Of a DNA stretch of 64,000 nucleotides, positions 1,580 through 15,634 are shown one piece after another (the first letter of the stretch is position 1; the number at the start of each line of letters is the position of its first letter). The notes beneath the pieces are model-generated. The model had not been told where the DNA came from and did not search any database. It saw only the letters and a program-made list of their open reading frames with translations. The position numbers and the translations under genes are program-made. Origin of the DNA: a virus; the IMG/VR virus record IMGVR_UViG_3300048762_000330; one strand, written 5' to 3'.

Positions 1580-3331
1580 ATGGCAAAGTCAACCTATGCA
1601 ACTGCATTCGCAACCAAGAAAACTCCACAGACCCAAGCAATTCCGGGTCGTGAAGCGGAAATGAAACAGAATAACGCTGGTGGTGTAACATTCACCATCA
1701 CGCCGGTTCAGATGTTGGAACGTTTCCTGATCCTTGGCAGCAATGCGCCTACGTATTACTCGTCTGCACGCAAACTGACAACAGACAATGCTGACAACAT
1801 CCGTGCGTGTCTGAAGGCCGATGGAAAGCGAACGGTTGACAAAATCGTTGAAATCTCTGTAGCTGGCCGTGCGCCATCGAATGATCCTGCAATTTTCGCT
1901 CTTGCGGTAGCTTCAACACCCGAATTTGGATCTCAAGAAACCGCATTGTATGCTTTATCACAATTAACTAAAGTGTGTCGAATTGGTACCCATTTGTTTC
2001 ATTTTGCTGAATACTTAACCTCAATGAGAGGTTTTGGTCGTGCTGTAAAAAGAGAACTTGGTTTATGGTACACTGACAAGAACGAAGGTCAACTAGCATA
2101 TCAAATTCTTAAATATCAATCAAGAGATGGCTGGAGTCATAAAGATATTTTGTCATTGGCTCATGTAAAAACCTCTGATCCACTTAAATCAGCAGTTTTG
2201 GCTTGGAGTGCAATTGGTGGTCTAGATGCTTTGGCTGAAGCTGAAAAAAATTGGACCAGATCTACAAAAAAGTACAATCTTTCAGAACAAGAAATTAACC
2301 AACGTCGCCATCGTTATGGAAGTGCTTATTCTTTATTGAGTAGTGGTGTTGCGCCAAAGATTATTGTTGGGTACGAGGCAGCTAAAAAAGCAACAACTAC
2401 CAAAGAAATTGTAAAGATTATTCGGGACACTAAACTCAGTCATGAAATGATTCCTACTCAATTTAAAACAGAGCCAGAAGTGTGGATGGCATTGCTAGAA
2501 AATGGGATGCCACTTACCGCAATGGTTCGTAATTTAGGCCAGATGTCGAAAATCGGTCTTTTGAAACCGCTGTCAGATGCATCGAAGTTAGTTGTCTCTC
2601 GCTTGAGTGACCAGCAATTCATTCAGAAGAGCCGTCTACACCCGCTGGCAATCATGCTGGCACAGGGAACCTATCGTCAGGGTCATGGTATGCGTAGTGA
2701 TTCTACATGGGATGTGGTTCCGACTGTTGTTGACGCTTTGGAAGATGCGTTTTACTTGGCGTTCGCAAACGTGATTCCGACTGGCAAAAGTATCTTCATC
2801 GGTCTGGACATTTCAGGTTCGATGAGATGGTCTTACATTGGGGCAACCGGCATTTCAGCGGCGCAAGCCGGTGCTGCAATGGCTTTAGTTATCGCACGTA
2901 CTGAACCAAATTACGCTATCTACGGGTTCAGTACTTCGTTGATTGATTTGGGTATCACAAAGAAGGATACTCTTGAATCAGCAATGAAGAAGACTTCTGA
3001 TCGCAATTTTGGTGGCACCGATTGTGCTCAACCAATGGTCTACGCCGAAAAGAAGGGTTTGACAGTTGATTCTTTTGTTACAATTACAGATTCCGAGACA
3101 TGGGCGGGAAAAATACAGCCGATACAGGCTTTGCAGAGTTACCGCAAGGCACGTGGTAAGAATGATGTGTCTATGATAGTTGTCGGGATGACAAGCACTG
3201 GCTTTAGTATTGCGGACCCTCAAGACCCGTACAATTTGGATGTGGTTGGTTTTGATGCGGCGATACCGTCATTTATATCTGATTTTATTCGTGGCACCAA
3301 TACAGGAATTTCTGAAGATACCGAAGAATAA
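1580..3331 (+). CDS. rsr: Ro60/TROVE-domain RNA-binding protein
   Basis: N-terminal NNAGG-x-x-F, RFLILGS, HEAT-like TROVE region (KYQSRDGWSHKD), C-terminal vWA with MIDAS DISGSM, GGTDCAQPM, TDSETW, VVGFD; GGAG RBS. Confidence 0.95.
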   Translation: MAKSTYATAFATKKTPQTQAIPGREAEMKQNNAGGVTFTITPVQMLERFLILGSNAPTYYSSARKLTTDNADNIRACLKADGKRTVDKIVEISVAGRAPSNDPAIFALAVASTPEFGSQETALYALSQLTKVCRIGTHLFHFAEYLTSMRGFGRAVKRELGLWYTDKNEGQLAYQILKYQSRDGWSHKDILSLAHVKTSDPLKSAVLAWSAIGGLDALAEAEKNWTRSTKKYNLSEQEINQRRHRYGSAYSLLSSGVAPKIIVGYEAAKKATTTKEIVKIIRDTKLSHEMIPTQFKTEPEVWMALLENGMPLTAMVRNLGQMSKIGLLKPLSDASKLVVSRLSDQQFIQKSRLHPLAIMLAQGTYRQGHGMRSDSTWDVVPTVVDALEDAFYLAFANVIPTGKSIFIGLDISGSMRWSYIGATGISAAQAGAAMALVIARTEPNYAIYGFSTSLIDLGITKKDTLESAMKKTSDRNFGGTDCAQPMVYAEKKGLTVDSFVTITDSETWAGKIQPIQALQSYRKARGKNDVSMIVVGMTSTGFSIADPQDPYNLDVVGFDAAIPSFISDFIRGTNTGISEDTEE

Positions 3332-4077
3332 TTTTCTTCACGCCAATCATCAAGGAACTCACAAATATCCAACAATGCGAGTTCTTTGAAACATTCTGTT
3401 CTTCCTCCACTGATACAAGATGGAATGTAACGATAATGTGAAAATTTTTCTATAATATACTGTTCCAAATCGTACAGTTTGTTCAATGCACCATTTAATT
3501 GGAATAAACATGATATAGATAGTTTGTTGTGTCTCCATTTTATTGATCGTTTCGCTATTGATTCTTGTGTTATACCAATTTTAAAAAATGATTCAAAATT
3601 GGAACGAATTAAAATTAAATATAATATTGTGTTTTTATTTTCTCTTGTTTTTCTAACTTCAGGTTGAGAGTAATAACCTCGTGTAACACATTTTGGGCAT
3701 CCGTTTCCGTGCCAATGACCATCTGGTGTTTGTTTGAAGTCACCATGAATTGGACAAGTTATGATGACTTTTGTGGTGCATACAGTATATTTTGATTTGT
3801 CATAATTGTATTTGTTACCATGAATTAATCTACTACGCTGAATGAAAGAATCGGTATTTTTCTTTGTTGGGTGACATAATTTACAGCCCCGACCTCGAAG
3901 ATGTTCACCGGCAATCTGTTGAAAATTTCCATGAATTTTACATGTGATTATTATTGGTAATTTGGCTGTTATATAAAAACTCTTACTGTATTCATATTTG
4001 CTATTATGCACGCTGTTTGCTTTTATAATGAACTCTGTAGTAGTGCGTTTTTTATTTGAATAAATACTTTCAGACAT
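3220..4077 (-). CDS. putative homing endonuclease (repeated H..KY.Y / C..HG.F.Q / GC..C modules + GIY-YIG-like C-terminus)
   Basis: two DUF723-like repeats, then LYLI...FFKIGIT; starts at MSESIY behind a GGAGG RBS; overlaps the Ro60 3' end convergently. Confidence 0.7.
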   Translation of the reverse strand: MSESIYSNKKRTTTEFIIKANSVHNSKYEYSKSFYITAKLPIIITCKIHGNFQQIAGEHLRGRGCKLCHPTKKNTDSFIQRSRLIHGNKYNYDKSKYTVCTTKVIITCPIHGDFKQTPDGHWHGNGCPKCVTRGYYSQPEVRKTRENKNTILYLILIRSNFESFFKIGITQESIAKRSIKWRHNKLSISCLFQLNGALNKLYDLEQYIIEKFSHYRYIPSCISGGRTECFKELALLDICEFLDDWREENYSSVSSEIPVLVPRIKSDINDGIAASKPTTSKLYGS

Positions 4078-4155
4078 GATTTGCTTGCCCTCCAAGCGTT
4101 TGTGTTTAGAGTGAGCGGCGGGTACTGATTATACCTGCCACTCATTCGTATTTAT
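4078..4155 (-). promoter_or_regulatory. late promoter + 5' hairpin leader of the nuclease gene
   Basis: minus strand ATAAATA-N5-GAGTGGCAGGTA(loop)TACCCGCCGCTC-ACTC-TAAACACAA...GGAGG...ATG. Confidence 0.7.
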
Positions 4156-4196
4156 ACTTGACATTCGAAAATTTGATAGTATACTAAATAAAGTTT

Positions 4197-4385
4197 ATGA
4201 TCAAAGCAATTGTTAACGTACTGAAGTTCGATGGGACACTTGTTAGTCATAACGAGTTTGTAACTAATCAGGAAGCTGCTGACTTTATGGTTCCCTTTGT
4301 TATAGAGCATCGACAATTCGATATCAATTATCAGCCGATTGGGGCACTTGACAACCTTGATGAGTGTGCTATACTGAAAGAGTAA
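4197..4385 (+). CDS. hypothetical protein
   Basis: ORF just downstream of TTGACA/TATACT and CTAAATA. Confidence 0.5.
   Translation: MIKAIVNVLKFDGTLVSHNEFVTNQEAADFMVPFVIEHRQFDINYQPIGALDNLDECAILKE
4348..4375 (+). promoter_or_regulatory. sigma70-type promoter of the ncRNA operon
   Basis: TTGACA-16nt-TATACT with TG extended -10. Confidence 0.75.
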
Positions 4386-4438
4386 GAGTGAACGCCAAGC
4401 GATCCGCAAGGGACGTTAAACGACCCAAAGGAACGCAA

Positions 4439-4452
4439 GGATCTTTGACAAT
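4439..4452 (+). promoter_or_regulatory. boxA-like antitermination element
   Basis: GGATCTTTGACAAT resembles rrn-leader boxA and lies about 60 nt after the promoter and ahead of structured RNA. Confidence 0.5.
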
Positions 4453-4462
4453 AAAAATTTCA

Positions 4463-4658
4463 TGGTACGAGCCGCTGGCATTAAGGTTACCTACTTGATG
4501 AAGACCCGGTGAGAAGTTGAAACACCAAATCCGGGAATATTAGCAGTTAGTAACAAGTGCTCCGCAAGGAGTGTAGTAAACAATGCAATGCAAGGGAATG
4601 AAATGCCCAATTTGGAGGCAAGTAATTCCCGGCCTTGAGCTACAATTTGCTCGTACCA
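4463..4658 (+). ncRNA. Y RNA-like RNA 1 (long, with inserted multi-helix domain)
   Basis: 5' TGGTACGAGC pairs with 3' GCTCGTACCA; GAGC-C-G / TTTGCTC bulged helix; GGTTACCT motif; internal CCGGGAAT/ATTCCCGG helix and GCAA tetraloop hairpin. Confidence 0.7.
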
Positions 4659-4662
4659 AATA

Positions 4663-5050
4663 TTCATGTAGAGCTAAAGCTCCATGATCGAGTTCTTCTC
4701 GTCATTAAACCATGAGAAGACGTTCCTGAACTTAACGCATGAAGGAGGCTACTTTGATGCATAGTGGCAAGCGTGACTGTGAAGCAACCGCCGACGATGC
4801 AGAAGGCTATCGCTTCCAATACAGACCTTCTTGTCTACGATAAAGTTCAGCAGTAATTCGCCTGTAAAGCGGGGTCATTTGGTGATGGACGTTAACTAGC
4901 ACTGGTCATTATGGATTAAGACCTTAAATTAATCCTGGTCGCAAGGATCGACAGAAAAATATCCAGTCATTGCCGGTTGCGGCCTTAAATCGGATAGCCT
5001 TGGTGGTGGGCGATATCATCACCCGATTTTTGAATCTCCTTGCGGGAGTT
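4663..5050 (+). ncRNA. unassigned structured RNA domain A
   Basis: no credible ORF; stems TCATG/CATGA, CTTCTC/GAGAAG, CTGAACTT(4726)/AAGTTCAG(4843), GGATTAA/TTAATCC. Confidence 0.5.
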
Positions 5051-5057
5051 GTATTTG

Positions 5058-5119
5058 ACTGAGCCGAAAGTAAGGGTTACCTTCTCATAAAAAGTCTCCT
5101 TACAAAATATTTGCTCAGT
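5058..5119 (+). ncRNA. Y RNA-like RNA 2
   Basis: ACTGAGC/GCTCAGT terminal stem; GAGCCGAAAG...GGGTTACCT...AATATTTGCTC. Confidence 0.7.
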
Positions 5120-5126
5120 ATTTGAG

Positions 5127-5224
5127 TTTTGGATCGAGCCGAAAGGGTAGGGTTATCTCATACCATTTTAATTGAATGCCAGGAAACTGGCTAGCTCCTT
5201 CTCGAATATTTGCTCGTTCCAAAA
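5127..5224 (+). ncRNA. Y RNA-like RNA 3
   Basis: TTTTGGATCGAGC/GCTCGTTCCAAAA stem; GAGCCGAAAGGGTAGGGTTATCTCA; GCCAG-GAAA-CTGGC hairpin; pyrimidine tract; AATATTTGCTC. Confidence 0.75.
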
Positions 5225-5590
5225 ATTTCTGTATTGGCAGAAACGCAGTTTCGCTGTTGTGCGAAAAATAGAACAGCGTGGCGGTGGGTAGAACCGGATG
5301 GCACAATGTGCTCTAAGGCGACTCTCCTGTGACCAGTACACATAAAAGCTGGTGGGAGACCGGGTAGGATAGAACCTATCGGCCTTTTGGGAGAGAAATC
5401 TCCCTAAAGTTTAGTGGTACGTGGCAGCAGATTAATGGAATCGTTGGGATGACGCTGCTTGAGTCATATGTTGAGTAGTGATACTTCAGCATACTTTAGT
5501 GTTGTATATGACGGCGGTATGTAGTATGACATAGGATCTTGAAAATCCTGCTGACGATTCAACCACTTGAGTTTGCCGAAAGGCAAAAAT
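5225..5590 (+). ncRNA. unassigned structured RNA domain B
   Basis: GGGAGA-GAAA-TCTCCC, TTTGCC-GAAA-GGCAAA, GAATCGTT/GACGATTC long-range helix, AGGAT-CTTGAAA-ATCCT anticodon-arm-like hairpin. Confidence 0.5.
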
Positions 5591-5593
5591 GGA

Positions 5594-5775
5594 GCCGATC
5601 ACATTGAACGTCGGGTCTTGCCAGACTGTGATAAACAAGTCGGGGTTGCCGATCACCTAATCCGGGTCTTTCAGAGAGCTAGTGACAACAAGCCATCGGT
5701 TGCCGATCACCTTAATCCGGGTCTTACCAGACTGTGACGACAAGTCGGGGTAGCTGAATCACCTTAATCTCAGGG
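5594..5775 (+). repeat. tandem array of about 54-nt structured repeats (3 full + 1 partial)
   Basis: units start at 5594, 5648, 5702, 5753; shared GCCGATCAC...CGGGTCTT...GTGA..ACAAG...GGT. Confidence 0.85.
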
Positions 5776-5922
5776 AAGCTGAAGAACCTTACTCTTAGCG
5801 TTTTTTTAAGTGTGTACGTTAACATCATTTGAGGTTTATTTGGTCAATCCTTAAAGGCTGGACGTTTCCACTTCACGTCAGAAGTGGTAGGATTCTGTTG
5901 ACCAATAAACAGCAGAGGCTTC

Positions 5923-5957
5923 GGCGGCGGGTGCCAAAACAGCCGCCATTATTATTT
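5923..5957. terminator. hairpin terminator between the ncRNA operon and the convergent gene
   Basis: GGCGGC/GCCGCC stem followed by an AT-rich tract. Confidence 0.5.
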
Positions 5958-7595
5958 TGTGCAAACATTCCAAATCGGATTATAACAAAGATTGCTTGTT
6001 GATGGATCACACGCCGCCCAATCAACTTCTGAGTTAGTCCCATTACCATTCACACATCCACCGGTATAAGGGATAAATCCCGATCCTGTTACTCCCGAAT
6101 CAATTAAGATTCCCACTTGATTGTTGGTTACATTCATTACCCCGATTGCTATATTGGTTAGAGGATCTGGATTCTTTTGAATATGGATTCCGTAACTATT
6201 GCTACTGATGCTTCTAATCAAACCAGTGTTAGGGTCAAGCGCAGAAATATAACTCAAAATTCCCTGATGCATAATGATTCCGGTTCCGCCGCCTCCCGTC
6301 GAACTGGCTATGTGGTTTATAATTGAGTTCCCTTTCAATGCGGTTGAATGCCCATCTATCTCGATAGCATCCACTCCTAAGTCTGGTGTAACCGGGCAGG
6401 AATATCCTGACAGTTGTCCTGATACTCCATTGACGGTTTGAATAATTCCCGTTGCTGGAGTTATTTGTTTATATCCGTTAAGATAGTTACCGTCAATTTC
6501 TACTTTGGAAGCAGAATTCCAAACCGTTAGTTGTCCACCTGGAACTCCATCAGGCTGCTCGTATCGGTTTCCGAGAAATTGATTTCCTGTAATATCGCCC
6601 CATCCACTCATAGTAACACCAGCCGTCCCGTTAAAATTCAAATTACTATTTGCAACGACAACATACCCGTCATTTAAACTACCATTTAAAACCCCATTAG
6701 TTCCACCTTGTATGCCGGTTGTTCTTGCGCTAAACACAGTTGAATTAAGTACAGAGCCGGTGTAGATTCGAACCGCACTTCCGGGAGAATTAATCACTTC
6801 TACATTTTGTAAGAAGGCGTAACTCGCATTACCAAAATCAACATCCCAATTAGCGTAAGCATCGCCGTTGTTAAGAGCACAACCCCAATAAGTTGGTTGG
6901 TCGAAATGAAATGCAAACCTATTTCCATCTATTGTAAGATTTTGTATTCCAACATTTGTGACACCCGCACTGGCGTTCACTACATTGTTTATTTGCTCAT
7001 TGTGACGTTGAATTGTAGTTGCCCATGGAGAATTACTCGAACCTGTCAAAATATAATTTGACTTTGTGAATGTGAGAGGTACATCTGTTGGATATGGAAC
7101 TCCTTGTGCTAAGATGCAATATGTCATTCCATTTGATACATTACCAGGAAGAATTCCAGATAAACAATTTTGTATTGAATTCAAATCGGAATAAACTGTT
7201 CCATAAATTTTACATGCTGCTGGACTTTTCGCATCTGTCATATTGGCATAGTTAGTTACCGTTGTCAATATTTGTGGTCGAAGCGTAGCGAGAAATTGTT
7301 GTGCCACGGTGGTTGTAAGTGTCACACGTTGTGGAACGGTTGCTTTTCGTAGTTGTTGAACAGCAGCGTCTAATGCAGCAACTTCAGTTGAATTAAGTCC
7401 AAATTGCTTCGTATAGCCGTCTTCCATAATGGTGACGAGAGAAGGCACCCAATGTGGATTGGACAAATTTGTGAAAGTGGAATATAGGTAGCTGCATGGT
7501 AACGTATTAGATTGTATTGGTTGTGCCAGACGCTTTGGCGTTTTACCCGGCAGCAGAATCATGAAAATGGTCAGCAATAAAATAAGTTTTCGCAT
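5952..7595 (-). CDS. secreted right-handed beta-helix (pectin-lyase-like) repeat protein
   Basis: signal-peptide-like MRKLILLLTIFMILL; N/G/I-rich beta-helix repeats (IQNLTIDGN, ITGNQF, IDGNYL); start sits 5 nt after CTAAATA. Confidence 0.65.
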   Translation of the reverse strand: MRKLILLLTIFMILLPGKTPKRLAQPIQSNTLPCSYLYSTFTNLSNPHWVPSLVTIMEDGYTKQFGLNSTEVAALDAAVQQLRKATVPQRVTLTTTVAQQFLATLRPQILTTVTNYANMTDAKSPAACKIYGTVYSDLNSIQNCLSGILPGNVSNGMTYCILAQGVPYPTDVPLTFTKSNYILTGSSNSPWATTIQRHNEQINNVVNASAGVTNVGIQNLTIDGNRFAFHFDQPTYWGCALNNGDAYANWDVDFGNASYAFLQNVEVINSPGSAVRIYTGSVLNSTVFSARTTGIQGGTNGVLNGSLNDGYVVVANSNLNFNGTAGVTMSGWGDITGNQFLGNRYEQPDGVPGGQLTVWNSASKVEIDGNYLNGYKQITPATGIIQTVNGVSGQLSGYSCPVTPDLGVDAIEIDGHSTALKGNSIINHIASSTGGGGTGIIMHQGILSYISALDPNTGLIRSISSNSYGIHIQKNPDPLTNIAIGVMNVTNNQVGILIDSGVTGSGFIPYTGGCVNGNGTNSEVDWAACDPSTSNLCYNPIWNVCTK

Positions 7596-9036: not shown

Positions 9037-9050
9037 GGGTTTTGAATGAT

Positions 9051-9115
9051 GATCGAGCCGGAAGATTTGGGTTATCTTATAAAAATCAAACCTATGTCAA
9101 ACAATTTGTTCGGTC
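9051..9115 (+). ncRNA. Y RNA-like RNA 4
   Basis: GATCGAGC/GTTCGGTC stem with G-U covariation; GAGCCGGAAG...GGGTTATCT...ACAATTTGTTC. Confidence 0.7.
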
Positions 9116-9128
9116 TAAATATAGAATT

Positions 9129-11794: not shown

Positions 11795-12700
11795 ATGGGT
11801 CAACAAGAAATGTATTGGTCTCTTCTGGCATTATCAGTTGGTGATGCAAGCGGCGAAAATGAATTGAAGATCCTGCCGCAATCAGAGTACAAAGCTGGTA
11901 ATGTTGCGGCCACACGAGATGGGTCAATTCTTTGGCCCTGGACCGACGACACCGCAATGGCTATAGGAGTCTTCAGGACGCTTTCCCGCTACGGAACCAT
12001 CAATCAGGTCGAGCTTACCAAAGAATTCGCACGTAACGCCAAGCTAGACCCACAGCGTGGTTATGGCAAAGGCACCGCCCGGTTGCTTTTCAATTATCTC
12101 TACGATGCAGAGAATTGGAGAGAACTCAGCGAACATGCATGGGGTCTAACTCCAATGTCAGGTTCTAAAGGCAATGGCAGCGCAATGCGTGATGTCATCA
12201 TCGGGCCGTATTTTGATCGAGATTTTCACCGCATCGCAAATGAAGCACGTCGTTCTGCTGAAGTAACGCATTTCCATTTAGAGTCAATTCATGGTTCTAT
12301 CGCTGTGGCCGTCGCCGCCGCTGTTGCGACATTCGAAGCACATCCTGAAAAATGGTTCTGGTCAGAACTCAACATGCATGTACCGGATGGCGAAATAAAA
12401 ACTCGCATTCAAACCGTCGCTAAAATGGGAAATGAAACCAATTGGAAAGTGGTTGGTGCCGTAGGAAACGGAAGTTCGGTCCTGGCAGTCGATACCGTTC
12501 CATTTGCTTTATGGCTGTCTCATCAAGTACTGACAAAAGGGATGAACTTTGAACAAGCCATGAAGAGTATTATTGAAGTTGGCGGCGACACCGATACTGT
12601 AGCCGCAATGGTAGGCGGAATCATTGGCAACAAAGTTCATCCTACACAGGAAATGATTGACCGGACTGAACCACTTCCAGCAGACATTTGTAAGGAATAA
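11795..12700 (+). CDS. ADP-ribosylglycohydrolase family protein
   Basis: SVGDA, WTDDT, GNGSAMR and GGDTDT..AM.G motifs. Confidence 0.9.
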   Translation: MGQQEMYWSLLALSVGDASGENELKILPQSEYKAGNVAATRDGSILWPWTDDTAMAIGVFRTLSRYGTINQVELTKEFARNAKLDPQRGYGKGTARLLFNYLYDAENWRELSEHAWGLTPMSGSKGNGSAMRDVIIGPYFDRDFHRIANEARRSAEVTHFHLESIHGSIAVAVAAAVATFEAHPEKWFWSELNMHVPDGEIKTRIQTVAKMGNETNWKVVGAVGNGSSVLAVDTVPFALWLSHQVLTKGMNFEQAMKSIIEVGGDTDTVAAMVGGIIGNKVHPTQEMIDRTEPLPADICKE

Positions 12701-14971: not shown

Positions 14972-15634
14972 TTAGGTTCTATAATCAATAATTTTAGTTC
15001 CTTTGCCGCCCATTCCATTGCAGATATGGCATAAAGGTTGAATATTTGAAATCCAATTAGTTCCAAGTTTTTGATTTGGACAACAGCAGACTTTATAATT
15101 TTTACTACACCACTGACAAACTGAAAGTGGAACTATGTGATCTCGTTCCATTACATAACATCGTCCTGTTATTGGATTTATAGGAAATTCTGATTCGTGT
15201 TTTTTACAACGAAGACAATGATGCCCATAACATTCGTTAAGATCAATCCATTGTTTTGTTGAGTGATATCCTTCGGCGTTTTTTCGTCTGGCACGATTTT
15301 TTATTCCTGATGTTCGTGTACTTTCACGATACTTCTTTGTATAAGATTGAATCATCTCAGAATTTGATTGTCGCCATTTTCGATGAATTTCATAACACTT
15401 TTCTGGATTTTCTTGTTGCCATTTTCGACTTTTTTCACAAACCTTTTTAAAATTTGATTGATACCATTTTTGACTACGTTCATGACACTTTTCTAGATTT
15501 TTTGTACTCCATTTTCGAATGCGCTCACGACTACAATTAACACATTTTTTGTTGTTAATATACCTCATCAATCCATTACACTTCTTGCATGGTTTTCCTT
15601 CAAAATATTTGGATGATAAATTATTGTTAGACAT
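14972..15634 (-). CDS. repeat-HNH element copy 2 (intact)
   Basis: EGKPCKKC...CVNC; 15-aa repeats; ERDHIVPLS...GTNWISNIQPLCHIC; ends IIDYRT. Confidence 0.85.
   Translation of the reverse strand: MSNNNLSSKYFEGKPCKKCNGLMRYINNKKCVNCSRERIRKWSTKNLEKCHERSQKWYQSNFKKVCEKSRKWQQENPEKCYEIHRKWRQSNSEMIQSYTKKYRESTRTSGIKNRARRKNAEGYHSTKQWIDLNECYGHHCLRCKKHESEFPINPITGRCYVMERDHIVPLSVCQWCSKNYKVCCCPNQKLGTNWISNIQPLCHICNGMGGKGTKIIDYRT

What the first reader, a model, noticed from the sequence alone, without database searches (positions are those of the whole stretch)
4348..5957. 1.56-kb non-coding operon with an rrn-like boxA and large unassigned RNA domains
Seen: a sigma70 promoter, then GGATCTTTGACAAT, then about 1.5 kb with no credible ORF in an otherwise gene-dense genome, ending in a hairpin terminator. 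Between the Y RNAs lie two roughly 380-nt folded domains with GNRA tetraloops and long-range helices. They include an isolated anticodon-arm mimic (AGGAT-CTTGAAA-ATCCT) and a 77-nt rod (5834-5910). Known: boxA recruits NusB/NusE for long structured transcripts, and phages encode large RNAs such as GOLLD and ROOL near tRNAs. Inference: a large ncRNA, or several processed ones, co-transcribed with Ro ligands.
Basis: partly seen in the sequence, partly recalled or inferred. Interest (0 to 1): 0.75.

Follow-up and report, generated by a model that had tools for sequence, protein, structure and literature searches.

The report
Jumbo-phage mosaic noncoding RNA operon
A 1.6-kb gene-free stretch beside a giant phage's Ro60 gene is one promoter-to-terminator operon of three Y RNAs and at least five other conserved RNA modules, including a folded RNA of about 375 bases that matches no known family.

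Summary
The observation largely holds. Window 4348-5959 has a strong, conserved sigma70-type promoter. A leader motif follows that matches the Bacillus-type rrn boxA consensus. Then comes the largest ORF-free gap in the window, closed by a hairpin plus U-tract terminator. It lies 1 kb downstream of a Ro60 (TROVE) gene of an uncultured jumbo phage of about 400 kb.

It is not one big RNA. Comparison with ten related metagenomic loci shows a mosaic of separable modules:
- Y1, Y2 and Y3, confirmed by a covariance model
- D1 (4659-5035)
- M2a
- M2b
- a 54-nt repeat array
- a tail module

Relatives shuffle, lose or invert these modules. They also insert tRNA-Ala genes, a Y RNA carrying an embedded tRNA, an extra module of about 390 nt, or a small ORF between them.

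D1 is the real novelty:
- It is more conserved than the Ro60 coding DNA.
- It is non-coding.
- 22 of its 79 predicted pairs show compensatory changes, against 2-5 in controls.
- Rfam gives no match to it.

The "77-nt rod" and the "anticodon-arm mimic" are not conserved as such.

The scan found phage Ro60/Y-RNA clusters before on other DNA, but nothing resembling this sequence.

The parts
1580..3331 (+). Ro60/TROVE-vWA gene (583 aa), the presumed protein partner of the Y RNAs
   Evidence: Pfam TROVE 1.5e-36 and vWA_Ro60 9.2e-56. About 30 homologues at 54-76% identity exist, many on contigs of 100-405 kb.
3220..4095 (-). Homing-endonuclease-like gene between Ro60 and the RNA operon
   Evidence: Pfam T5orf172 and PHROG 681 endonuclease at 1.9e-43. 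No endonuclease-type gene is called at this position in the fetched relatives, which carry short genes there, some ferredoxin-like.
4197..4385 (+). Small conserved ORF (62 aa) with its own promoter at 4158-4185. Its 3' end contains the RNA-operon promoter.
   Evidence: Homologues at 73-84% identity. The same position is occupied in L007 and L140.
4348..4375 (+). Sigma70-type promoter with extended -10
   Evidence: Conserved in relatives.
4382..4462 (+). Leader with a GCAA-capped hairpin and the boxA-like motif at 4439-4452
   Evidence: Consensus taken from PMC13753749.
4463..4658 (+). Y1: long Y RNA with an internal domain of about 150 nt
   Evidence: Covariance model R1, 24.6 bits, E 5e-4. 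Closing stem TGGTAC/GTACCA with GAGCCG...TTTGCTC. Orthologues in L007, L008, L137 and L140.
4659..5035 (+). D1: structured RNA of about 375 nt and unknown class, with 15 predicted helices. These include the invariant long-range pair ACGTTCC (4721-4727) with GGATCG (4946-4951), and a terminal hairpin at 5002-5023.
   Evidence: Present in L007, L008 and L140, in part in L123, and distantly in L012. 22 of 79 pairs change on both sides, against 2-5 in slid controls. Non-coding by indel lengths and substitution pattern. No Rfam match.
5036..5048 (+). Small hairpin CTCC-TTGCG-GGAG followed by a T-rich run, seen only in the window
   Evidence: Absent from L007 and L008 in the alignment.
5055..5120 (+). 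Y2: minimal Y RNA
   Evidence: R1 46.2 bits, E 4e-10. Fold z -2.4.
5130..5221 (+). Y3: Y RNA with a GAAA-capped side hairpin
   Evidence: R1 63.4 bits, E 6e-15. Fold z -3.4. Orthologues in L007, L008 and L123.
5226..5405 (+). M2a: composite of hairpin sub-units. One is a hairpin at 5252-5278 followed by a G-rich tail. Another is a hairpin with the conserved loop GTGACCAGTACAC...AAAGCTGGTGGG. A third is a GAAA-capped hairpin.
   Evidence: Sub-units recur in L123, L001, L007 and L009. In the first hairpin, 6 of 10 pairs show compensatory changes. Fold z -2.3 and -3.0.
5406..5589 (+). M2b: module with a highly conserved 5' part (GGTACGTGGCAGC...TTGGGATGACGCTGC), the hairpin at 5533-5549, and a closing GAAA hairpin at 5572-5587
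   Evidence: Found in L007, L008, L123 and L010 (nhmmer 1e-25 to 1e-54). Only fragments in L140. Alignment and fold.
5590..5775 (+). REP: three and a half tandem units of about 54 nt (GCCGATCAC...AATCCGGGTCTT...ACAAGTCGGGG)
   Evidence: Unit number varies among L007, L008, L140, L001, L012 and L123. Individual units have no significant fold, z about 0.
5776..5922 (+).
   Evidence: Same orientation in L140 and inverted in L007.
5923..5959 (+). Intrinsic terminator: GC stem followed by a U-rich tract
   Evidence: Overlaps the stop codon of the convergent gene 7982-5952.
9049..9117 (+). Y4: fourth Y RNA, heading the next RNA cluster. It lies outside the finding but belongs to the same family.
   Evidence: R1 57.7 bits. 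Its counterpart in L007 at 15037-15109 directly follows the island.

Best explanation
This is the stable-RNA operon of an uncultured jumbo phage of about 400 kb, physically linked to the phage's Ro60 gene.

Transcription. A strong sigma70-type promoter at 4348-4375 starts an untranslated transcript of about 1.57 kb. Its leader carries a Bacillus-type rrn boxA. I infer that this motif recruits host NusB/NusE, so that RNA polymerase resists Rho and the internal hairpin-plus-U sites until the terminator at 5923-5959.

Content. The transcript is a mosaic of independent modules. I infer that host RNases cut it into separate RNAs:
- three Y RNAs (Y1, Y2, Y3), which presumably load onto the phage Ro60 ring
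- a folded RNA of about 375 nt and no known family (D1)
- two smaller structured modules (M2a, M2b)
- an array of 54-nt repeat units
- a tail module

Sister phages carry the same island with tRNA-Ala genes, a Y RNA with an embedded tRNA, and other modules interleaved. The window therefore holds a reduced version that lacks tRNA.

Status of each step.
- Shown: promoter, boxA-like motif, absence of ORFs, terminator, membership of the clade's Y family, conservation and covariation of D1, and modular shuffling.
- Inferred: antitermination, processing, Ro60 binding, and any role for D1, M2a, M2b and REP. My guess is that they are further RNP components or decoys of the Ro60 and RNA-decay system.
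For: - Promoter and terminator.
- boxA-like motif: GGAUCUUUGACAA against the B. subtilis rrn consensus AUGAUCUUUGAAA. Kept in 8 of 9 leaders while the surrounding sequence varies.
- No ORF. No conserved reading frame in D1, with indels of 4, 1, 2, 27 and 1 nt and substitutions by codon position of 24/31/20.
- Y family: 35 covariance-model hits in 11 loci plus 4 in L140, all on the + strand, with exactly four in the window. The closing stem shows up to five pair types per position.
- Ro60 gene upstream.
- D1: 78-79% DNA identity to L007 and L140, against 64-72% for Ro60 coding DNA. 22 of 79 pairs are compensatory, against 2-5 in slid controls. Many G-U pairs fit only the + strand.
- Modularity: L008 and L140 lack M2a. 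L123 has M2a before Y3. L007 has a 63-aa ORF between M2a and M2b and an inverted tail. L007, L008 and L140 have a second Y, tRNA-Ala and an extra stretch of 340-390 nt (alignable only between L007 and L008) between Y1 and D1.
- Precedent: D. radiodurans Yrn2, tRNA-Asp and Yrn1 are made as one polycistronic precursor (PMC4201824).
Against: - No expression data could be obtained.
- Processing sites, NusB/E binding and Ro60 binding are untested.
- The window Y RNAs do not reach any Rfam Y-family model. Only a sister copy came close, to the nematode sbRNA model (34.6 bits against a threshold of 38).
- D1's minimum free energy in the window is not unusual (z -0.79).
- The D1 structure rests on four full sequences and was predicted from the same alignment on which pairs were counted.
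- The terminator-like hairpin ending D1 (5002-5023 plus a T run) could split the region into two transcripts.
Confidence: 0.6

Rival explanations
1. The whole 1.5-kb transcript works as one large scaffold RNA, a GOLLD-, ROOL- or rRNA-like particle with several Ro60 docking stems, and is not cut into pieces.
For: - Single promoter and single strong terminator.
- An rrn-type boxA typical of long structured transcripts.
- D1 itself has long-range helices.
Against: - Modules are lost, reordered, inverted or separated by tRNA genes and an ORF in sister phages.
- No duplex between modules is better than shuffled controls, with all z above -1.1.
- No Rfam match to any large-RNA family.
Confidence: 0.12
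2. The segments between the Y RNAs are decaying remnants of tRNA and Y genes: junk spacers left after the window's lineage lost tRNA-Ala and other modules.
For: - The window lacks the tRNA-Ala, the second Y and the extra module that sister loci carry.
- D1's first hairpin is shared with a tRNA-like element of L001.
- REP units have no significant fold.
- The rod is not conserved.
Against: - D1 is more conserved than the adjacent Ro60 coding DNA.
- D1 shows compensatory changes in 22 pairs.
- M2b has a core kept in five loci.
- The Y model finds nothing inside these segments.
Confidence: 0.12
3. Part of the region, the 54-nt REP array, acts at the DNA level as iterons or a recombination site rather than as RNA.
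For: - Tandem direct repeats with conserved blocks.
- No significant RNA fold per unit.
- In L007 the segment after the array is inverted, and its far end carries REP-like sequence in the opposite orientation.
Against: - The array lies inside the promoter-terminator unit, on the same strand as all other modules.
- It always follows the same GNRA hairpin in all loci.
- No replication or recombinase gene is adjacent.
Confidence: 0.08
4. The region hides small protein-coding genes.
For: - ORFs of 30-63 aa exist.
- A sister phage has a genuine-looking 63-aa zinc-ribbon ORF inserted in the island.
Against: - The longest ORF is below random expectation.
- The D1 ORF at 4739-4843 loses its start codon and its frame in L007.
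- Indels are not multiples of three.
Confidence: 0.03

Closest known systems
Bacterial and phage Ro60 (Rsr) loci with Y RNAs: Salmonella rsr-yrlBA-rtcBA, the D. radiodurans Yrn2-tRNAAsp-Yrn1 precursor, mycobacteriophage YrlA, and Thermus phage phiLo Yrl1/Yrl2 (PMC4201824, PMC12135203)
   Same: - A Ro60 gene with several small RNAs next to it.
- The 5' and 3' ends of these RNAs form a stem with a conserved bulged helix and a CCGA/CGAA motif.
- Co-transcription of Y RNAs with tRNAs is documented in Deinococcus.
- Sister phages here have a Y RNA with an embedded tRNA, as in YrlA.
   Different: - Up to six Y copies of three size classes in an island of 1.6-3 kb.
- A boxA leader.
- None of the window's Y RNAs is tRNA-like, and none reaches the Rfam models.
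- The island also carries several non-Y structured modules, including D1 of about 375 nt.
rrn operon leader boxA and Nus-factor antitermination (E. coli UGCUCUUUAACA; B. subtilis AUGAUCUUUGAAA, PMC13753749)
   Same: - The motif sits in the leader of a long, untranslated, highly structured transcript.
- It lies downstream of a small hairpin.
- The core GAUCUUUGA is identical to the Bacillus consensus.
   Different: - It is phage-encoded and precedes Y RNAs rather than rRNA.
- The host and any Nus binding are unknown.
- No second boxA lies inside the operon.
Large phage-borne structured RNAs found near tRNA genes: GOLLD and ROOL (own knowledge; Rfam families)
   Same: A large, ornate non-coding fold encoded by a phage inside a tRNA and stable-RNA island, with unknown function.
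   Different: - No covariance-model match at E up to 10 in the window or in two sister loci.
- D1 is smaller, about 375 nt.
- D1 is known only from one jumbo-phage sub-lineage.
Phage T4 tRNA operon with its two stable RNAs of unknown function, species 1 and 2 / rnaC and rnaD (own knowledge)
   Same: A phage polycistronic stable-RNA transcript in which tRNAs are interleaved with other small structured RNAs that are processed out.
   Different: - T4 has no Ro60 or Y RNAs.
- The window's copy has no tRNA at all.
- No sequence relation was tested.

Membership tests
Y RNA (Ro60 ligand) | The 5' and 3' ends pair into a closing stem that covaries | tested here: met
   30 copies found by regular expression and 39 by covariance model. 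Stem positions show 2-5 pair types.
Y RNA (Ro60 ligand) | Conserved Ro-binding helix with a bulged C and a CCGA/CGAA-type motif next to the closing stem | tested here: met
   GAGCCG is invariant in 18 of 18 aligned short copies, opposite a near-invariant TTTGYTC (one copy reads TTAGTTC). This leaves one C unpaired. Y2 and Y3 read GAGCCGAAAG. The CGAA criterion is from PMC12135203.
Y RNA (Ro60 ligand) | Encoded next to a Ro60/TROVE gene | tested here: met
   Ro60 at 1580-3331. The same linkage holds in all loci long enough to show it.
Y RNA (Ro60 ligand) | Match to the curated models (Rfam Y_RNA, YrlA, sbRNA) | tested here: not met
   No match in window 4100-6100 at E up to 10. The best result is L001 Y2 against RF01656, 34.6 bits against a threshold of 38.
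Y RNA (Ro60 ligand) | Binds Ro60 and depends on it for stability | not testable with these tools
   Needs EMSA or immunoprecipitation.
rrn-type boxA antitermination signal | Sequence fits the boxA consensus | tested here: met
   GAUCUUUGA equals the core of the B. subtilis consensus AUGAUCUUUGAAA. It matches 9 of 12 positions of E. coli UGCUCUUUAACA.
rrn-type boxA antitermination signal | Located in the leader of a long untranslated transcript and conserved among relatives | tested here: met
   It lies 57 nt after the predicted start and 11 nt before Y1. It is kept in 8 of 9 leaders. The motif is not over-represented in the window as a whole, with 12 hits against 11.4 expected.
rrn-type boxA antitermination signal | Bound by NusB/NusE, and read-through depends on it | not testable with these tools
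   The host is unknown, and this needs biochemistry or reporter assays.
GOLLD / ROOL / OLE / HEARO / raiA and other large ncRNA families | Covariance-model match | tested here: not met
   Rfam 15 searched at E up to 10 on the window, at E up to 5 on L007 and at E up to 10 on L140. No hit in D1, M2a, M2b, REP or the tail.
tRNA, tmRNA, RNase P RNA, group I/II intron | ARAGORN or Rfam match | tested here: not met
   No tRNA or tmRNA in 4386-5957. Relatives have tRNA-Ala between the modules.
CRISPR array or repeat mimic (for REP) | Constant repeats separated by unique spacers | tested here: not met
   The variable parts of units 1 and 3 are 95% identical, at 20 and about 25 nt. No cas gene was seen among the neighbours examined.
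Intrinsic terminator | GC-rich hairpin followed by a U tract, at the end of the unit | tested here: met
   Stem 5923-5928 / 5942-5947 at -14.5 kcal/mol, then ATTATTATTTTG. Conserved in L140 with a longer T run.

The most novel reading that the evidence does not exclude
D1 (4659-5035) may be the founding member of a new class of large structured phage RNA that works with the Ro60/Y-RNA system. In L007 and L008 it is preceded by a further conserved module of about 390 nt, and L140 carries an unaligned stretch of similar size there. It could serve as a scaffold or decoy that directs Ro60 and host exonucleases, or it could be a ribozyme that processes the island. It would then be neither a passive spacer nor a tRNA remnant.
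Probability: 0.3. Interest if true: 0.75.

Novelty: new variant of a known kind. Interest (0 to 1): 0.58.

Why it matters
The role of Ro60 and Y RNAs in bacteria and phages is still largely open. This jumbo-phage lineage offers an unusually rich natural system for studying it:
- one Ro60 gene
- up to six Y RNAs of three architectures
- tRNAs
- several unclassified structured RNAs

All of these are driven by one promoter with what looks like a borrowed rrn antitermination signal. If the boxA reading holds, it would show that a phage uses the host's rRNA-type elongation complex to make its own stable RNAs.

D1 adds a well-conserved fold of about 375 nt to the short list of large phage RNAs with no known function. 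It comes with a clear candidate protein partner to test.

Tried and rejected
- Rfam: searched at gathering and permissive thresholds on the window, L001, L007 and L140. Nothing was found in the unassigned modules.
- DNA similarity: no match to cultured phages, plasmids or E. coli genomes, including rRNA operons. The best cultured-phage Ro60 is only about 40% identical.
- Pattern scans of IMG/VR with M2a, D1 and M2b motifs gave only chance coding matches, apart from the contig already known.
- The genome-collection scan gave one chance coding match.
- D1 is absent from the complete 405-kb genome behind L001.
- 'The spacers are diverged Y RNAs': rejected by the covariance model.
- 'D1 is a tRNA split by a group I intron': no intron model match, and no acceptor or T-arm pairing at its ends.
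- 'A leader-tail processing stem as in rrn operons': no duplex better than shuffles.
- Three contig look-ups returned no DNA.
- No structure prediction or complex prediction was run, because the question concerns RNA.
Full report
**Observation.** The stretch is as described in outline.
- A promoter TTGACA-16-(TG)TATACT lies at 4348-4375.
- The motif GGATCTTTGACAAT lies at 4439-4452.
- No ORF in 4386-5952 exceeds 63 aa, below the 87 +/- 25 aa of shuffled sequence. With the upstream 62-aa ORF, this is the largest gap without an ORF of 100 aa or more in a window that is 76% covered by such ORFs.
- The unit ends in a GC hairpin (5923-5928 / 5942-5947) followed by ATTATTATTTTG.
- Rfam and ARAGORN find nothing between 4100 and 6100, even at E up to 10.

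**Context.**
- A Ro60/TROVE-vWA gene lies at 1580-3331.
- A homing-endonuclease-like gene on the other strand separates it from the RNA unit. It is seen only in the window.
- No genome is held for the window.
- Ro60 has about 30 relatives at 54-76% identity, several on contigs of 370-405 kb. One of these is an IMG/VR virus record rated complete. The source is therefore an uncultured jumbo phage.
- The nearest cultured phage Ro60 is about 40% identical.

**Relatives.** I fetched ten related loci: L001, L007-L013, L137 and L140. A 1.5-kb contig, L123, came from a DNA pattern scan. All loci long enough to show it have an ORF-poor island of 1.4-4 kb after Ro60, with the same promoter and leader.

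**Y RNAs.**
- A motif search and then a covariance model built from 18 short copies find 39 Y-type RNAs in these loci, all on the + strand.
- Exactly four lie in the window: 4463-4658, 5055-5120, 5130-5221 and 9049-9117.
- They share an invariant GAGCCG, a near-invariant GGGTTAYC (one copy reads GGATATC), and a near-invariant TTTGYTC (one copy reads TTAGTTC).
- Their closing stem covaries freely.
- This geometry leaves one C bulged, as in the Ro-binding helix of known Y RNAs.
- One sister copy nearly reaches the Rfam model of nematode sbRNAs, which are Y homologues.
- The model finds nothing inside the segments between the Y RNAs, so those segments are not diverged Y copies.

**The leader motif.**
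- GATCTTTGA is kept in 8 of 9 leaders, 15-25 nt (longer in two loci) before Y1, while the surrounding sequence varies.
- A 2026 paper gives the B. subtilis rrn boxA-like consensus as AUGAUCUUUGAAA and the E. coli one as UGCUCUUUAACA (PMC13753749).
- The phage motif shares the Bacillus core exactly, and two sister loci read UGAUCUUUGAA.
- An untranslated 1.6-kb transcript with internal hairpin-plus-U sites (5002-5023 and 5036-5048) is the kind of RNA that needs such protection from Rho. That reasoning is inference.

**D1 (4659-5035).**
- It is present in L007, L008 and L140, in part in L123, and distantly in L012.
- Its DNA identity to L007 and L140 is 78-79%, against 64-72% for Ro60 coding DNA.
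- It does not code. Indels are 4, 1, 2, 27 and 1 nt, substitutions show no codon periodicity, and the only ATG-started ORF loses its start and frame in L007.
- On a four-sequence alignment, the consensus fold has 79 pairs in 15 helices.
- 95% of cells are paired, against 31-46% when partners are slid. 22 pairs change on both sides, against 2-5.
- An earlier three-sequence alignment, and a four-sequence one of the 5' part that includes L012, gave similar results.
- Supported helices include a nine-pair helix about 90 nt apart (GCATGAAGG with CCTTCTTGT), several hairpins, a hairpin CCGGTT-loop-AATCGG that becomes CAAATT/AATTTG in L140, and the terminal hairpin.
- The helix that closes the core (ACGTTCC with GGATCG) is invariant and therefore untested.
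- Caveats: there are only four full sequences, the structure was predicted from the same alignment, and the window's own folding energy is not unusual (z -0.79).

**The second 'domain' is two modules.**
- M2a (5226-5405) is absent from L008 and L140, sits before Y3 in L123, and shares only sub-units with L001, L007 and L009.
- M2b (5406-5589) has a strongly conserved 5' core in L007, L008, L123 and L010.
- L007 has a 63-aa CxC..CxxC ORF between the two.
- The hairpin read as an anticodon-arm mimic keeps its loop in L007 and L008. The loop differs in L123, and the hairpin is missing in L010 and L140.

**REP and tail.**
- The 54-nt units vary in number between loci and have no significant fold of their own.
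- The tail and terminator are in the same orientation in L140. They are inverted in L007, and REP-like sequence in the opposite orientation lies at the far end of the inverted segment.
- The 77-nt rod folds in the window, but only its inner hairpin is kept by compensatory changes.

**Modularity.**
- Between Y1 and D1, sister phages carry a second Y RNA, a tRNA-Ala(UGC), and a further stretch of 340-390 nt. That stretch aligns only between L007 and L008.
- In L140, both ARAGORN and Rfam call the inside of that second Y RNA a full tRNA (50.6 bits).
- The window lacks all three elements.
- No pairing between modules beats shuffled controls.

Together this points to a polycistronic array of separate RNAs. 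Deinococcus provides a precedent, where Yrn2, tRNA-Asp and Yrn1 come from one precursor (PMC4201824).

**Verdict.** This is a real, conserved, non-coding operon linked to a phage Ro60 gene.
- The Y RNAs are new members of a known kind.
- The boxA leader and the mosaic content make it a new variant.
- D1 is a good candidate for a new structured-RNA family.
- Its function, the processing of the transcript and the antitermination step remain inferred.

The scan has reported phage Ro60/Y-RNA clusters in other genomes. It has found no look-alike of this sequence.

Noticed in passing
L140:4344-4482 (also L007:12479-12630, L008:3674-3816): A second Y RNA in sister phages encloses a complete tRNA-like domain. 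In L140, ARAGORN calls it tRNA-Cys(GCA) and Rfam tRNA scores it at 50.6 bits. This is a YrlA-like architecture, and the window has lost it.
   Followed up: partly
L007:14345-14723: The tail module and terminator are inverted relative to the window and L140. REP-like sequence in the opposite orientation lies at the far end of the inverted segment, and a 61-aa gene with a signal-peptide look lies inside the segment. This suggests recombination between REP copies.
   Followed up: partly
L007:13836-14027: A 63-aa ORF with CxCxxC...CxxC (zinc-ribbon-like) and a GAAAGGA ribosome-binding site is inserted between modules M2a and M2b. The source's gene caller did not call it.
   Followed up: partly
L001:11862-11937 and L010:12112-12187; tRNA-Ala in all sister islands: tRNA-Ile(GAU) sits right after Ro60 and tRNA-Ala(UGC) sits inside the island. 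This is the tRNA pair of bacterial 16S-23S spacers, found here beside an rrn-type boxA. It may hint that the island was seeded from an rrn operon.
   Followed up: no
window 5648-5665, 5702-5720, 5757-5770: The REP conserved block contains GATCACCT, the same 8-mer as the 3' end of 16S rRNA just before the anti-Shine-Dalgarno core (from memory). This may be chance.
   Followed up: no
L001:13160-13235: A tRNA-like element with a canonical T-arm (CCGGG-TTCGAGT-CCCGG) and a terminal CCA that neither ARAGORN nor Rfam calls. Its first hairpin is the same as the first hairpin of D1.
   Followed up: no
L001:12630-12690: The leader of the sister phage carries a run of short tandem repeats (CTGTTTCGTT-like) between boxA and Y1.
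   Followed up: no
L010:16773-16814: A match above threshold to the Rfam abiF RNA motif (45.2 bits against 37) lies inside a jumbo-phage tRNA region.
   Followed up: no
window 11795-12700 and neighbours in all loci: The Ro60/RNA island travels with genes for a Macro domain, NADAR (in L010), ADP-ribosylglycohydrolase, ClpP and an IF1/eIF-1A-like fold. This looks like a neighbourhood for reversing ADP-ribosylation.
   Followed up: no
L123:1291-1370 (minus strand): The terminal hairpin of D1, with its conserved loop GGCGATAT, is duplicated in tandem in this contig.
   Followed up: no
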